The notes under the pieces were generated by a model that made no database searches, was not told where the DNA came from, and saw nothing but the letters and a program-made list of their open reading frames with translations. The translations under genes were made by a program, and so were the position numbers. A stretch of 36,091 nucleotides of DNA from a virus, in the IMG/VR virus record IMGVR_UViG_3300045988_081375, positions 1-36,091 of that record. One strand, 5' to 3'. Position 1 is the first letter of the stretch. Each line of letters starts with the position of its first letter. This document shows, piece after piece, positions 32,947 through 34,752 of the stretch.

Positions 32947-34570
32947 GAAATATTGGGAGGACAGAGCCGCAGGACGAATGGTAAGCTACACGTCAAAAGC
33001 GGAAAGCACTGCCGATACGCTCGGTAAGGCTTATTACGCAACAGCACGGTATTTGCAAGGGGAAGCGAATGACGTTTTTAACGCCTTTACAGATAAGTTT
33101 GAACTGAGTATTGCCGAAGCCGAAACAATGCTCAAAAACGCACCGAATAAGTCTATGTTTGAACAGATGAAGACCGCTCTTGCTACCTGCACCGATGAGC
33201 AGAGGAAGCAGGAGCTTGAAACGCTGTTGTCTTCGCCTGCATACGCCCACAGAATAGGGCGCTTAAATGATCTTGACAGCAAGATAAGTGATATGTGCTC
33301 ACGCCTTGCAAACGCCGAAATAGGCGTTGATACAGAGCATCTGGGCGATATAATTCAGAGTGCGTATATGCAGACGGTTTTCGATGTGACGAAGGGTGCG
33401 GATTACCGTGCGGCTTTCGATTTAATTCCCGAAAGCCGTGTGAAAGCTATTCTGTCTACTAACTGGAGCGGCCAGATGTTCTCCGAGCGTGTCTGGGATA
33501 ACACAAACGCACTTGCAGACGGGCTGAAGCACGATATGCTTGTGGGCATTATGGCAGGAAAGTCCGAACAGCATATGGCGGACGATATAATGAGCCGCTG
33601 CGGTGTCGGCGCTTTCGAGGCACGCAGGCTTGTCCGAACGGAAACCACCTGCGTTGCGAATATGGCGGAGCTGTACGGCTACAAGGAACTTGACATTGAC
33701 GAATACGAGTTTTCCGCCTGCCTTGACAGCCGTACAAGCGATCTATGCCGTGAGCTTGACGGTAAGGTGTTCAAGCGCAACAGCGCACAGGCAGGTGTAA
33801 ATCTTCCGCCTATGCACCCGTTCTGCCGTTCTACAACGCTCCCTGTACTGCCGAGCGAGGAGGATCTTGACAAAGAGCTTGCCGAACTGGGCGATGAGAT
33901 AGGCGCAGATGTTGACATTGACGAGTGGGAGCGGAACTTACAGCAGGGCGAGGACGGCAAGTGGCGGTACGTTGCAGGAAGTGCGGGTAAACCGATGAGG
34001 TTTGCAGGGGATGGTGTTGACAAATCAAAGGGAAATGGTATAATTAATATAGAATTTGATGAATTTGTACCGTGTTTAAAAGATGCAGAAACCGGTGAGA
34101 TTTTTCAGACGGAAGTTAGAGAACTCACGAAATCTGAATATTCACGCTTCAAGGAGGCTGATGGTTGGAATATAGATTGGTCGGATATTCCTGATGGTGA
34201 ACAGGTCTTAGGAGTATATCTTAAAAACGATACAGAACCACAGGGACTTATAGCTATACGCAAAGATAAAGGCGGTGTATACTTGTCGTATGCAAGTACA
34301 GCACCTATCAACAACAAACTGCTTAACAATGGAAAACAGAAGTTTATTGGAGTCGGAGGACATTTATTTGCGGCGGCTATAGAGGAGTCCGTAAAAGCGG
34401 GAAACGAGACCGGATGTATATACGGATATGCGGCTAATCAAGAAGTTCTTAATCATTATATAGAGAATTTTGGCGCTGTTCACTTGCCAATCACTCATGA
34501 ATATCAGTTTATAATAGACGGGGAAGCGGCAGAGCAAATTCTCTCAAAATATAATTTTGAAAGGATATAA
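32930..34570 (+). CDS. minor head protein (MuF / SPP1 gp7 domain) fused to a C-terminal GNAT-like module
   Basis: MuF core: FSERVWDNT...RLVRTETTCVANMAE...SACLDSRTSDLCRELDGKVF...PPMHPFCRSTT. From about 34020 there is an AT-richer extra domain with the GNAT-like pattern QKFIGVGGHLFAAAIEESVKAG...IYGYAANQEVLNHYIENFGA. Confidence 0.85.
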   Translation: MKNPSKKYWEDRAAGRMVSYTSKAESTADTLGKAYYATARYLQGEANDVFNAFTDKFELSIAEAETMLKNAPNKSMFEQMKTALATCTDEQRKQELETLLSSPAYAHRIGRLNDLDSKISDMCSRLANAEIGVDTEHLGDIIQSAYMQTVFDVTKGADYRAAFDLIPESRVKAILSTNWSGQMFSERVWDNTNALADGLKHDMLVGIMAGKSEQHMADDIMSRCGVGAFEARRLVRTETTCVANMAELYGYKELDIDEYEFSACLDSRTSDLCRELDGKVFKRNSAQAGVNLPPMHPFCRSTTLPVLPSEEDLDKELAELGDEIGADVDIDEWERNLQQGEDGKWRYVAGSAGKPMRFAGDGVDKSKGNGIINIEFDEFVPCLKDAETGEIFQTEVRELTKSEYSRFKEADGWNIDWSDIPDGEQVLGVYLKNDTEPQGLIAIRKDKGGVYLSYASTAPINNKLLNNGKQKFIGVGGHLFAAAIEESVKAGNETGCIYGYAANQEVLNHYIENFGAVHLPITHEYQFIIDGEAAEQILSKYNFERI

Positions 34571-34572
34571 AA

Positions 34573-34752
34573 ATGACTGAAATAATACCGGATCCTGATA
34601 TTAAGGAATTTGACGGGGTATATGTAGGAGGTAAAAAGCGTTTGCCACCTAATGAATATAATCTTAGCCGATTGGCAGAGTACTTACGGAAGACGAATAA
34701 GAAATTTTCAGATTTGAGCAAAGAAGAGAAAAAAGCATTTATTTTGCCTTAA
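34573..34752 (+). CDS. hypothetical 59-aa protein downstream of the MuF C-terminal module
   Basis: Hand-translated MTEIIPDPDIKEFDGVYVGGKKRLPPNEYNLSRLAEYLRKTNKKFSDLSKEEKKAFILP. It starts 3 nt after the MuF stop, shares the AT-rich composition, and is followed by a terminator. Confidence 0.45.
   Translation: MTEIIPDPDIKEFDGVYVGGKKRLPPNEYNLSRLAEYLRKTNKKFSDLSKEEKKAFILP

What the first reader, a model, noticed from the sequence alone, without database searches (positions are those of the whole stretch)
34020..34752. AT-richer GNAT-like module swapped onto the MuF head protein C-terminus, with a small partner ORF
Seen in sequence:
- The MuF/SPP1-gp7 core ends near PPMHPFCRSTTLPVL and is followed by an acidic linker.
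- From about 34020 there is a ~180-aa domain whose composition drops to about 40 percent G+C, against about 60 percent in a line of the MuF core.
- It carries a GNAT-like motif A (QKFIGVGGHLFAAAIEESVKAG) and a following strand/helix (IYGYAANQEVLNHYIENFGA).
- A 59-aa ORF starts 3 nt after the stop and shares the composition.
- Two terminator-like hairpins close the cassette.

Established knowledge:
- MuF proteins of temperate Firmicutes phages are known carriers of polymorphic C-terminal toxin domains with downstream immunity genes.
- gp7-type proteins are packaged and can leave the capsid with the DNA.
- GNAT toxins that acetylate charged tRNA exist in toxin-antitoxin systems.

Inference: a virion-delivered acetyltransferase effector plus a cognate inhibitor. 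I do not recall a GNAT cargo among the MuF-associated domains I know.
Basis: partly seen in the sequence, partly recalled or inferred. Interest (0 to 1): 0.7.

Follow-up and report, generated by a model that had tools for sequence, protein, structure and literature searches.

The report
Swappable GNAT toxin cassette on phage MuF
A gut prophage's head protein (MuF) ends in a swappable module made of a very divergent acetyltransferase-fold domain and a tiny partner gene, most likely a virion-delivered toxin and its antidote. The pair also occurs on its own in hundreds of gut bacterial species, and the fusion joint itself encodes a promoter.

Summary
ORF 32912-34570 is a MuF/SPP1-gp7 head protein. 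Its last ~180 aa (34031-34567) model confidently (pLDDT 90) as a GNAT fold, although no Pfam, PHROG, NCBIfam or PDB sequence profile detects it.

About 40 sibling phages have near-identical MuF cores. Their DNA identity breaks at 33884-34063 and resumes at 34749-34753. In between they carry about nine other cargoes (ADP-ribosyltransferase, HExxH-type domains, DUF6883, several unknowns), each with its own small downstream ORF.

The 59-aa ORF is a genuine partner: a homologue follows the domain in 160 of 168 loci. Most genome copies are free-standing two-gene modules in variable neighbourhoods (425 hits among GTDB species genomes).

Best reading: a new GNAT-fold toxin/antidote family used as MuF cargo. 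It is not a member of the TacT/DUF1778 family, and the domain is acidic, which argues against a tRNA target.

Unexpected extra: the conserved junction peptide "VDKS...GII" is the translation of a perfect sigma-70 promoter (34017-34044). Codon usage shows selection at the DNA level. This promoter probably expresses the partner independently.

Enzyme activity, toxicity and packaging are untested.

The parts
32912..34570 (+). Whole MuF-cargo fusion gene (552 aa), lying between the portal gene (31561-32946) and the scaffold gene (34877-35533)
32912..33850 (+). MuF / SPP1-gp7 minor head protein core (residues 1-313, ending in PPMHPFCRSTTLPVL)
   Evidence: PF04233 at residues 206-309, TIGR01641, and phrog_2841/phrog_115 over residues 1-357. 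84-99% identical over the 70-aa end-of-core anchor in 44 sibling loci
33851..34018 (+). Acidic linker (residues 314-369), still part of the conserved backbone
   Evidence: Sequence. DNA identity with sibling phages continues through it
34017..34044 (+). Junction element. It encodes the peptide V-D-K-S-K-G-N-G-I-I and is at the same time a perfect sigma-70 promoter consensus (TTGACA, 16-nt spacer, TGnTATAAT). It is also the left recombination zone of the cassette.
   Evidence: 3 perfect matches in 36 kb, 0.00 expected; conserved in distant fusions, and 27 of 29 junction peptides are encoded nnT-ATA-ATn against 5.8% expected. Left breakpoints at 33884-34063
34031..34567 (+). Divergent GNAT-fold domain (residues 374-552), the putative toxin or effector. 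No in-frame ATG, GTG or TTG occurs downstream of the junction promoter.
   Evidence: AlphaFold2 model with pLDDT 90.2. Foldseek matches to GNATs. 40 homologues and 1308 clusters. No hit in any profile library
34058..34099 (+). Family-specific N-terminal motif DEFVPCLKDAETGE, with an invariant Cys388, on a beta-hairpin before the GNAT core
34337..34402 (+). Motif-A-like segment QKFIGVGGHLFAAAIEESVKAG. G480-A487 is invariant. It forms the loop and the start of helix alpha3, the expected pyrophosphate-binding site for CoA.
34418..34477 (+). Motif-B-like segment IYGYAANQEVLNHYIENFGA (strand beta5 and helix alpha4, with near-invariant Tyr516)
34573..34752 (+). 59-aa partner ORF (putative antidote or immunity protein). 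The N-terminal half is predicted to be disordered. The C-terminal ~30 aa form a small helical unit carrying the family motif Y..h..L..Y....GK....LT.EE...F.
   Evidence: Homologue downstream of the domain in 160 of 168 loci. 279 clusters, no Pfam match. Model
34751..34785 (+). Terminator-like hairpin 1 plus T-run. It marks the fixed right boundary of the cassette (sibling identity resumes at 34749-34753).
34789..34806 (.). Palindrome GTGCAATTGATTGCAC between the two hairpins, in conserved backbone DNA
   Evidence: The same element is in L001
34822..34849 (+). Terminator-like hairpin 2 plus T-run, in conserved backbone DNA upstream of the scaffold gene

Best explanation
Positions 34020-34752 are one allele of a polymorphic cargo cassette in the MuF minor-head-protein gene of a temperate siphovirus-like gut phage. 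The cassette supplies two things: (i) a C-terminal ~180-aa domain of a previously unnamed, very divergent GNAT-fold family, and (ii) a cognate ~60-aa partner protein.

Proposed mechanism:
1. The MuF-GNAT fusion is made late in infection, is packaged in the capsid through its MuF part, and enters the next cell with the DNA.
2. There the GNAT domain uses an acyl-CoA to acylate a host target and harms or reprogrammes the cell. The target is unknown. Because the domain is acidic, a protein or a cationic small molecule is more likely than tRNA.
3. The partner binds and neutralises the domain. Its disordered N-terminal half would fold on binding.
4. The partner is transcribed independently of late genes, from a sigma-70 promoter written into the codons of the fusion junction (34017-34044). 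A lysogen would therefore be protected.

The same two genes also exist without MuF as an autonomous toxin-antidote-like module in many gut and rumen bacteria. That module is the likely source of the cassette.

Shown here: the MuF core, the GNAT fold, the cassette polymorphism and its breakpoints, the co-conservation of the partner, and DNA-level selection on the junction promoter.

Inferred: acyl transfer, toxicity, neutralisation by binding, packaging and injection, and promoter activity.
For: - MuF core in a packaging module of a temperate phage: terminase, portal, MuF, scaffold, plus integrase and Ant.
- GNAT fold: pLDDT 90.2, and all top PDB hits are GNATs, with Foldseek probability 1.00 for the best. 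The two best viral-library hits are 'minor capsid proteins' carrying the same domain.
- Motif-A-like and motif-B-like segments are invariant or nearly so across 20-70% identity, which suggests a conserved active site.
- Polymorphism: 44 sibling loci carry about ten different ends, including a PF03496 ADP-ribosyltransferase exotoxin domain, an ATLF-like domain plus DUF6883, and HExxH-type domains. Each has its own small downstream ORF. Left breakpoints fall at 33884-34063 and the right breakpoint at 34749-34753. All cassettes are AT-rich.
- Partner: a homologue lies downstream in 160 of 168 loci, mostly overlapping the stop codon. In the reverse look-ups the domain lies upstream of the partner.
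- TA-like behaviour of free-standing copies: 425 hits in species genomes, very variable neighbours, copies on plasmids, and one intact partner gene next to a decayed GNAT remnant.
- Promoter: a perfect consensus, one of three in 36 kb against 0.00 expected. 51 of 59 distant fusions score at least 10 of 12 at the junction. Codon test P about 1e-31. No start codon for the domain follows the promoter in this class.
- Precedent: the MuF toxin Apk2 is neutralised by the small immunity protein IapK, which occludes its active site (PMC12226406). [quoted passage not shown]
Against: - No Pfam or PDB sequence profile recognises the domain as a GNAT. TM-scores to solved GNATs are only 0.42-0.66, so conservation of catalysis is not proven.
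- The loop between strand beta4 and helix alpha3 is about 17 residues, much longer than in canonical GNATs.
- No experimental evidence for toxicity exists for any member of the family.
- The co-fold of domain and partner could not be run, so physical binding is inferred only from genetic linkage.
- The partner model is of modest confidence (pLDDT 63).
- The promoter match is a consensus match. The host's sigma factor preferences are unknown.
- Many of the loci compared are related to one another, so the counts overstate the number of independent observations.
Confidence: 0.6

Rival explanations
1. The domain is specifically a TacT/AtaT-type toxin. It acetylates the amino group of charged tRNAs in the infected cell and blocks translation, and the 59-aa protein acts as its antitoxin.
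For: TacT3, TacT1, GmvT, AtaT2 and TacT are among the best structural matches (ranks 2-30, E 5e-4 to 6e-3). The architecture is a two-gene toxin-antidote pair.
Against: - RimI, PanZ, CBU0801 and GCN5 score equally well, so the fold search does not discriminate between GNAT subfamilies.
- There is no sequence-level relationship.
- The partner has no DUF1778/RHH or DUF4065 domain and lies downstream, not upstream (family definition from PMC9177977).
- The domain is acidic (net charge -13 in the window copy, family median pI 5.6). That is unfavourable for binding tRNA.
Confidence: 0.15
2. The domain is not a toxin. It is an injected host-takeover or anti-defence enzyme, comparable to T4 Alt, that acylates a host protein or a signalling molecule to the phage's benefit. 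The small protein is a chaperone, packaging adaptor or timing regulator rather than an antidote.
For: GNAT domains were proposed as protein-modifying early effectors in virion-delivered polyvalent proteins (PMC5512222). The location in a head protein fits. An acidic surface fits basic protein targets or polyamines.
Against: - The same slot holds classical toxin domains in sibling phages.
- The pair thrives as a free-standing module in non-phage chromosomal and plasmid contexts with variable neighbours, where no virion delivery exists.
- An orphan partner is retained beside a decayed enzyme gene.
- A dedicated promoter that serves only the partner suggests protection rather than co-packaging.
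Confidence: 0.17
3. The GNAT-fold domain is catalytically dead and works as a binding or structural module, for example as a decoy or a capsid-internal protein. The partner is an unrelated small phage gene.
For: The sequence is extremely divergent from active GNATs and has an unusual long loop before helix alpha3.
Against: - Conservation is concentrated exactly where GNATs bind CoA: GVGGHLFA is invariant, the N..L..HY...FGA helix is conserved, and the Tyr, His, Cys, Asn and Trp residues are invariant. This is the pattern expected of an enzyme.
- The partner is tightly co-inherited.
- Sibling phages do without the domain, so it is not structural.
Confidence: 0.05
4. The small protein is the substrate or a product-related peptide of the GNAT, for example a protein that is acylated, rather than its inhibitor.
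For: TacT acetylates its own antitoxin TacA (PMC5449658, abstract listed). The partner has a near-conserved Lys in the GK motif.
Against: No residue other than E52 and F56 is invariant in the partner. No maturation or export genes are linked. Being a substrate and being an inhibitor are not mutually exclusive.
Confidence: 0.03

Closest known systems
MuF polymorphic toxins of temperate phages (Jamet et al. 2017, PMC5576092). The experimentally studied example is Apk2 with its immunity proteins IapK and Aph1 (PMC12226406).
   Same: A MuF N-terminal domain in the packaging module of a temperate phage. A variable C-terminal domain that is exchanged between close relatives. A small ORF immediately downstream. 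Abundant in the human gut.
   Different: The cargo is a GNAT-fold domain, which is not among the reported MuF cargoes (nucleases, metallopeptidases, ADP-ribosyltransferases, RelA-like domains). The partner belongs to an unnamed ~60-aa family. A promoter embedded in the junction codons was not found in the MuF papers read here.
Type II GNAT toxin / DUF1778 (RHH) antitoxin systems: TacAT, AtaRT, ItaRT, KacAT, GmvAT (PMC9177977 and others)
   Same: A GNAT-fold enzyme paired with a small, partly disordered partner in a compact two-gene module that is scattered in variable genomic contexts. These toxins are among the best structural matches.
   Different: No detectable sequence homology. The partner lacks DUF1778/RHH or DUF4065 and is encoded downstream, not upstream. 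The domain is acidic. There is an extra N-terminal beta-hairpin carrying the invariant PCL motif. No evidence points to a tRNA target.
GNAT domains of phage and conjugative-element 'polyvalent proteins' (Iyer et al. 2017, PMC5512222)
   Same: A GNAT domain fused into a protein predicted to be delivered into the recipient cell along with the DNA. Solo versions also exist.
   Different: Those two families are RimI-like. They occur in gammaproteobacterial prophages next to an ART domain, or in elements delivered by a type IV secretion system. No dedicated small partner was described for them. Here the architecture is a simple MuF-GNAT fusion in gut Firmicutes/Fusobacterium-type phages with an obligate partner. 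The sequence relationship to those families was not tested.
Enzymatic colicin operons, where the immunity gene has its own constitutive promoter inside the toxin gene (recalled from my own knowledge of colicin biology; not verified with the tools)
   Same: The antidote is expressed independently of the toxin, from a promoter located within the toxin coding sequence.
   Different: Here the promoter is written into a conserved linker peptide at a domain-fusion junction of a virion protein, and it doubles as the recombination joint of the cassette.

Membership tests
MuF polymorphic toxin (PMC5576092) | N-terminal MuF domain (PF04233 or PF06152) | tested here: met
   PF04233 E 5.6e-17 and TIGR01641 E 2.7e-27
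MuF polymorphic toxin (PMC5576092) | C-terminal extension that varies between proteins sharing the same N-terminal region | tested here: met
   About ten alternative ends on MuF cores that are 84-99% identical over the 70-aa anchor. DNA breakpoints at 33884-34063 and 34749-34753
MuF polymorphic toxin (PMC5576092) | Small ORF (<150 aa) immediately downstream as an immunity candidate | tested here: met
   59-aa ORF at 34573-34752. A homologue is present in 160 of 168 loci
MuF polymorphic toxin (PMC5576092) | Encoded in the DNA-packaging module of a temperate tailed phage | tested here: met
   Terminase, portal, MuF and scaffold genes in order. Integrase and Ant are in the window
MuF polymorphic toxin (PMC5576092) | The C-terminal domain is toxic and is neutralised by the downstream gene product | not testable with these tools
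   Needs expression and rescue assays. Sibling cassettes do carry known toxin domains (PF03496).
GNAT superfamily | GNAT fold: mixed beta-sheet with the beta4-alpha3-beta5-alpha4 core | tested here: met
   Model pLDDT 90.2. The order of secondary-structure elements matches. All top-50 PDB hits are GNATs, with TM-scores normalised by target length up to 0.66.
GNAT superfamily | Recognisable by sequence profiles of GNAT families | tested here: not met
   No Pfam GNAT model hits any of 38 members even at E 10. No PDB GNAT is hit by sequence or by profile.
GNAT superfamily | Motif A (Q/R-x-x-G-x-G/A at the start of alpha3) and motif B (beta5-alpha4) for CoA binding | tested here: inconclusive
   The invariant GVGGHLFA and the conserved A-N-x-x-L-x-x-Y-x-x-x-F-G-A lie on the right structural elements. 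The register differs from the canonical motif, and a 17-residue loop precedes alpha3.
GNAT superfamily | Acyl-CoA-dependent acyl transfer | not testable with these tools
   Needs biochemistry
Type II GNAT/DUF1778 toxin-antitoxin (TacAT, AtaRT, ItaRT) | Partner is a DUF1778 (RHH) or DUF4065 antitoxin | tested here: not met
   No Pfam family matches the window partner or the family as a whole; only scattered unrelated hits in one or two of 35 diverse members
Type II GNAT/DUF1778 toxin-antitoxin (TacAT, AtaRT, ItaRT) | The toxin belongs to the sequence-defined 'true TA clade' of GNATs | tested here: not met
   Only fold-level similarity (TM-score normalised by query length 0.40-0.48, 11-17% identity). 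No sequence hit.
Type II GNAT/DUF1778 toxin-antitoxin (TacAT, AtaRT, ItaRT) | Acetylates aminoacyl-tRNA | not testable with these tools
   The acidic charge (pI 4.65, charge -13, family median pI 5.6) argues against this but does not exclude it.
Polyvalent-protein GNATs (PMC5512222) | RimI-like GNAT inside a multi-domain virion- or T4SS-delivered protein, next to ART or in T4SS elements | not tested
The contexts they describe differ from this one.

The most novel reading that the evidence does not exclude
Two linked claims.

(1) The conserved linker peptide that precedes the cargo domain of MuF polymorphic toxins ('(V/I)D(K/N)S..(S/N)GII') is conserved mainly as DNA, not as protein. It is a sigma-70 promoter (TTGACA, 16-17 nt spacer, TGnTATAAT) embedded in the coding sequence. 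This promoter lets a prophage express the downstream immunity gene while the late operon is silent, and it also serves as the homologous joint at which cargo-immunity cassettes are exchanged.

(2) The GNAT-fold domain and its ~60-aa partner form a new, widespread toxin-antidote family of gut and rumen anaerobes, with a target different from that of the tRNA-acetylating GNAT toxins.
Probability: 0.45. Interest if true: 0.75.

Novelty: new variant of a known kind. Interest (0 to 1): 0.62.

Why it matters
MuF toxins are abundant in human-gut prophages, yet two-thirds of their C-terminal extensions have no assigned function (PMC5576092).

- This work assigns one large class of them (1308 clusters at 50% identity) to a GNAT-fold enzyme with a dedicated partner. 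It also shows that the same pair circulates as an autonomous module in hundreds of gut and rumen species. That adds an acyltransferase chemistry to phage-delivered toxins and possibly a new toxin-antitoxin family.
- The promoter hidden in the junction codons offers a concrete, testable answer to an open question about MuF toxins: how a lysogen stays immune when its late genes are off.
- The same element gives a simple sequence signature for finding cargo-immunity cassettes in phage genomes.
- A cultured phage that carries the system (Fusobacterium phage phiPaco) makes all of this experimentally accessible.

Tried and rejected
- Sequence-profile assignment failed. Pfam, PHROGs, NCBIfam and PADLOC give nothing for the domain or the partner. 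phmmer and a profile search against PDB sequences give only chance hits.
The domain-partner interface could therefore not be modelled.
- The partner model has pLDDT 63, and its fold search gave only meaningless hits with E > 4. My impression of a SAP/HeH-like helix-turn-helix is unconfirmed.
- Model coordinates are not exposed, so I could not test whether the invariant Cys388, His484, Asn467 and Tyr547 cluster together.
- The strict terminator scan found no terminator in 33900-35000. The hairpins were confirmed by folding instead.
- I considered that the junction promoter is a relic of the free-standing module's own promoter and rejected it. Free-standing copies have ordinary promoters at variable distances, not at the fixed junction position.
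- I considered that the C-terminal domain has a structural role in the capsid and rejected it, because sibling phages replace it or lack it.
- Conserved neighbours of free-standing modules that might hint at a pathway: none. The most common neighbour family is present in 9 of 71 loci (an ABC ATPase, and a Mn-catalase-like protein in 8), which looks like chance or lineage effects.
- Literature searches for MuF together with GNAT or acetyltransferase found no description of this family.
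Full report
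**1. The observation**

The window encodes a 552-aa protein at 32912-34570 (+). Residues 1-357 match phage minor-head-protein families. Residues 206-309 match PF04233 (Phage_Mu_F, E 5.6e-17) and TIGR01641 (phageSPP1_gp7, E 2.7e-27). The gene sits between the small and large terminase genes and the portal gene upstream, and a head scaffolding gene downstream (34877-35533, phrog_172). The window also carries an integrase, an Ant anti-repressor, a tape-measure protein and an endolysin, so it is a temperate siphovirus-like phage.

G+C in 200-nt windows falls from 0.545-0.57 (33500-33999) to 0.355-0.415 (34000-34899). A 59-aa ORF (34573-34752) follows the stop codon. The strict terminator scan reports nothing. 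Folding, however, shows two related hairpins, each followed by a T-run: 34751-34778 (-13.9 kcal/mol, z -3.7) and 34822-34841 (-10.4 kcal/mol, z -3.5).

**2. The C-terminal domain is a GNAT fold that sequence methods miss**

Residues 361-552 hit nothing in Pfam, PHROGs, NCBIfam or PADLOC, and nothing meaningful among PDB sequences, either as a single sequence or as a profile.

The domain has 40 homologues in the word-indexed search and 1308 clusters at 50% identity in the exhaustive profile search.

An AlphaFold2 model built on 38 sequences is confident (pLDDT 90.2, pTM 0.86) from residue 374 onwards. All top-50 Foldseek hits in the PDB are GNAT acyltransferases. They include CBU0801 (E 4.6e-5), TacT3, PanZ, RimI, GmvT, TacT1, AtaT2 and GCN5. 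TM-scores are 0.42-0.51 normalised by query length and up to 0.66 normalised by target length, at 8-17% identity. In the viral library the two best hits are 'minor capsid proteins' with the same domain (TM 0.77 and 0.74), followed by viral GNATs.

Conservation is sharp. C388, W419, W423, G445, P465, N467, G480-A487 (GVGGHLFA), A507 and Y547 are invariant across fused members of 19-47% identity.

Two features are atypical: an N-terminal beta-hairpin carrying D-E-x-V-P-C-L-K-D-x-x-T-G-E, and a 17-residue loop between strand beta4 and helix alpha3. The fold is therefore established. The pattern of invariant residues suggests a live enzyme, but that has not been shown.

**3.

A near-identical phage from human faeces (MT835595.1) matches the window at 94% over 31501-34020. 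It then diverges completely and matches again from 34753. Its MuF protein ends in a different domain with an HELGH motif, followed by a different small ORF.

A scan for close relatives of the MuF core alone returned 48 viral contigs. In 44 of the fetched loci (these plus L001) the end of the core (84-99% identical over a 70-aa anchor) could be followed. They carry the following ends:

| C-terminal end | Loci | Pfam result |
|---|---|---|
| GNAT-fold domain (as in the window) | 4 | none |
| HELGH type | 7 | none |
| 'NRKLS' type with an HEVEH motif | 9 | none |
| 374-aa type | 6 | weak ATLF-like match (E 9e-4) plus DUF6883 |
| ADP-ribosyltransferase | 2 | PF03496, E 2e-20 |
| Four other types of unknown function | 8 | none |
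| No extension (short form) | 8 | not applicable |

Left breakpoints relative to the window lie at 33884-34063, mostly at 34020 or 34047. The right breakpoint is almost fixed at 34749-34753, directly after the partner's stop codon and at hairpin 1. Every cassette is AT-rich (30-42% G+C) and brings its own small downstream ORF or ORFs. This is the defining behaviour of a polymorphic toxin locus (PMC5576092, PMC3482391).

**4. The small ORF is an obligate partner, and the pair is also an autonomous module**

I fetched 160 loci encoding the domain, from species-representative genomes (425 hits, best 80 kept) and from viral contigs (93 hits, best 80 kept), and added loci from context look-ups. Of 168 loci with sequence downstream of the domain, 160 have a homologous small ORF there (iterated HMM, E <= 1e-3). 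Seven of the other eight have a similar-sized ORF in the same place, and one runs off its contig end.

The small ORF usually overlaps the stop codon of the upstream gene (offsets -19, -13 and -3 nt are the most common) and is 53-91 aa long, with a mode of 62.

The partner family has 279 clusters at 90% identity and no Pfam match. Its conserved part is the C-terminal Y..h..L..Y....GK....LT.EE...F motif. The model shows a disordered N-terminal half and a small helical unit over residues about 28-58 (pLDDT about 80 there, 63 overall).

Reverse look-ups starting from three abundant partner clusters gave these results:
- In two cases the domain is at the C-terminus of the upstream MuF protein.
- In one case an intact partner sits beside a 25-residue remnant of the GVGGHLFA region, that is, an orphan antidote next to a decayed enzyme gene.

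In bacterial genomes most copies are free-standing (~185 aa plus ~62 aa). They occur in Lachnospiraceae, Fibrobacter (several copies per genome), Oscillospiraceae, Treponema, Bacteroidales and Gordonibacter. Copies also lie on Treponema and Paenibacillus megaplasmids. Their neighbourhoods are highly variable: the most common flanking family is present in 9 of 71 loci.

In viral contigs most copies are fused to PF04233, PF06152 or PF25310 (VG15) head proteins. This distribution is what one expects of a toxin-antidote module that has been captured as cargo.

**5. What it probably does**

The slot, the fold, the obligate partner and the TA-like behaviour together point to an acyl-CoA-dependent toxin or effector that its partner neutralises.

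I do not file it under the TacT/AtaT/ItaT family, for four reasons:
- There is no sequence relationship.
- The partner lacks DUF1778/RHH or DUF4065, which define that family (PMC9177977).
- The gene order is reversed.
- The domain is acidic (pI 4.65 and charge -13 in the window copy, family median pI 5.6), which is a poor fit for tRNA binding.

RimI, PanZ and GCN5 score as well as the toxins do in the fold search, so the target cannot be read from structure. A protein or a cationic small molecule seems more likely to me, but that is only an inference.

Packaging and injection are inferred from what is known about MuF and gp7 proteins. Neutralisation by binding is inferred by analogy with Apk2 and IapK (PMC12226406).

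**6. An unexpected feature: the fusion joint is a promoter**

The scan found a perfect extended -10 sigma-70 consensus (TTGACA, 16-nt spacer, TGnTATAAT) at 34017-34044, exactly at the left edge of the cassette and inside the MuF ORF. Only three perfect matches exist in the 36-kb window, against 0.00 expected from shuffles. The other two lie where promoters are expected: in the lysogeny-switch region at 15995-16023, and 20 nt upstream of the ORF at 28989.

The two hexamers are the codons of the junction peptide: V-D-K gives gTT GAC Aaa, and G-I-I gives ggT ATA ATt.

The signal is not confined to close relatives:
- Among 59 unique MuF-GNAT fusions (32-58% domain identity, several different head-protein families), 51 have a match of at least 10 of 12 at the junction. 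The mean is 10.2, against 7.1 for equally sized windows elsewhere in the same ORFs. The element sits at fixed distances from the domain start.
- Of 29 unique junction peptides with x-I-[I/M], 27 are encoded nnT-ATA-ATn. The expectation from Ile-codon and third-position usage in the same ORFs is 5.8% (binomial P about 1e-31, though the junctions are not fully independent). The 'GII' motif is therefore under selection as DNA.
- The same perfect element precedes other cargoes: DUF6883 in L176 and an ART domain in the Phage_min_cap2 fusion of L203. It also occurs, as TTGAAA-N17-TATAAT, in the cultured Fusobacterium phage phiPaco.
- Free-standing modules have ordinary promoters at variable positions, so the junction element is not simply a relic of those.

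In the class that includes the window, the -10 ends 13 nt before the conserved Asp of the domain, and no in-frame start codon follows. A transcript from this promoter could therefore express only the partner. In a second class, an in-frame ATG, GTG or TTG lies 19 nt after the -10 (six junctions, four of them with a Shine-Dalgarno-like sequence), so a free domain might also be made there.

The simplest reading is that this is a constitutive promoter for the antidote that works in the lysogen. It would also provide the conserved DNA at which cassettes recombine. Promoter activity itself is untested.

**7. Comparison with what is known, and novelty**

The kind of system, a MuF polymorphic toxin with a downstream immunity gene, is known. 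What differs is the following:
- The cargo chemistry. A GNAT fold is absent from the MuF cargo lists in PMC5576092 and PMC3482391.
- The domain and its partner are both unnamed families.
- The pair also exists as a widespread free-standing module.
- The junction-embedded promoter.

GNAT domains in virion- or T4SS-delivered polyvalent proteins were reported earlier (PMC5512222), but in other architectures and without a partner. I could not test how those families relate to this one.

I therefore rate the finding as a new variant of a known kind, with moderate to high interest.

**8. Limits**

- All functional statements are inferences: acyl transfer, toxicity, neutralisation, packaging and promoter activity.
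- Many of the loci are related to each other, so the counts are not independent observations.
- The host of this phage is unknown. The closest relatives come from human faecal viromes, and related domains occur in Oscillospiraceae and Acutalibacteraceae genomes assembled from metagenomes.

Noticed in passing
window 34017-34044; also L175, L176, L187, L188, L203 and L230, and 51 of 59 distant fusions: The conserved junction peptide before MuF cargo domains ('(V/I)D(K/N)S..(S/N)GII') is the translation of a sigma-70 promoter (TTGACA, 16-17 nt spacer, TGnTATAAT). 27 of 29 unique junctions use nnT-ATA-ATn codons, against 5.8% expected. The element occurs before GNAT, ART and DUF6883 cargoes alike.
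   Followed up: yes
window 15995-16023 (+) and 28941-28969 (+): These are the only other two perfect TTGACA-N16-18-TATAAT matches in the window. One lies in the divergent lysogeny-switch region upstream of the Ant gene (16425). The other lies 20 nt upstream of the ORF at 28989-29876, ahead of the terminase genes. They are probably the early promoter and a late or packaging-module promoter.
   Followed up: partly
L228 2888-2962 and 3001-3201; L229 1202-1276 and 1315-1515: An intact partner gene (P0304, 66 aa) is preceded only by a 25-residue remnant of the GVGGHLFA region of the GNAT-fold gene. It lies next to DNA methylase genes and a sortase-pilin cluster. This looks like an orphan antidote beside a decayed toxin gene.
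   Followed up: partly
P0024 (274 aa): One relative has an N-terminal Xre-type HTH (PF01381) fused to the GNAT-fold domain instead of MuF. It may be an autoregulated version of the module.
   Followed up: no
L203-L209 and L212 (e.g. L203 3671-5134): In eight sibling loci the MuF ORF stops two codons after the shared core (the 'short' form). It is immediately followed by an overlapping 487-aa ORF that contains a second MuF-type motif (HPNCRH, Phage_min_cap2-like) and a C-terminal ART-like domain. This is a hybrid or tandem arrangement of head-protein genes.
   Followed up: no
window 34789-34806; L001 4930-4945: A palindrome, GTGCAATTGATTGCAC, lies between the two terminator-like hairpins and is conserved with one change in the sibling phage. 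The intergenic block 34753-34861 is also found in otherwise unrelated virome contigs (L002, L003). It could be a protein-binding site or a mobile intergenic element.
   Followed up: partly
L022, L048 and L087 (Fibrobacter succinogenes RUG13674); L046, L071 and L076 (RUG10152): Single Fibrobacter genomes carry at least three separate copies of the free-standing GNAT-partner module on different contigs, as is common for toxin-antitoxin families.
   Followed up: no
L230 (Fusobacterium phage phiPaco, OR492274.1, 34728-36475 in the record): A cultured phage with a known host (F. necrophorum) carries the same arrangement. It has a 524-aa minor head protein with the domain at 35% identity, a 58-aa partner overlapping by 4 nt (HMM E 6.6e-14), and a junction promoter-like element. 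It is a ready experimental system.
   Followed up: partly
A2 members: Three of 39 fused members carry the domain on a PF25310 (VG15) protein rather than on PF04233 or PF06152. The cargo has therefore been captured by at least three head-protein families.
   Followed up: no
window 13735-14820 (-): In the lysogeny-side leftward operon, a 361-aa ORF combines a DNA-polymerase-type 3'-5' exonuclease region (residues 10-174) with a C-terminal part. That part matches phrog_3989 and, weakly, the C-terminal region of DNA ligases. This is an unusual fusion next to the integrase.
   Followed up: no
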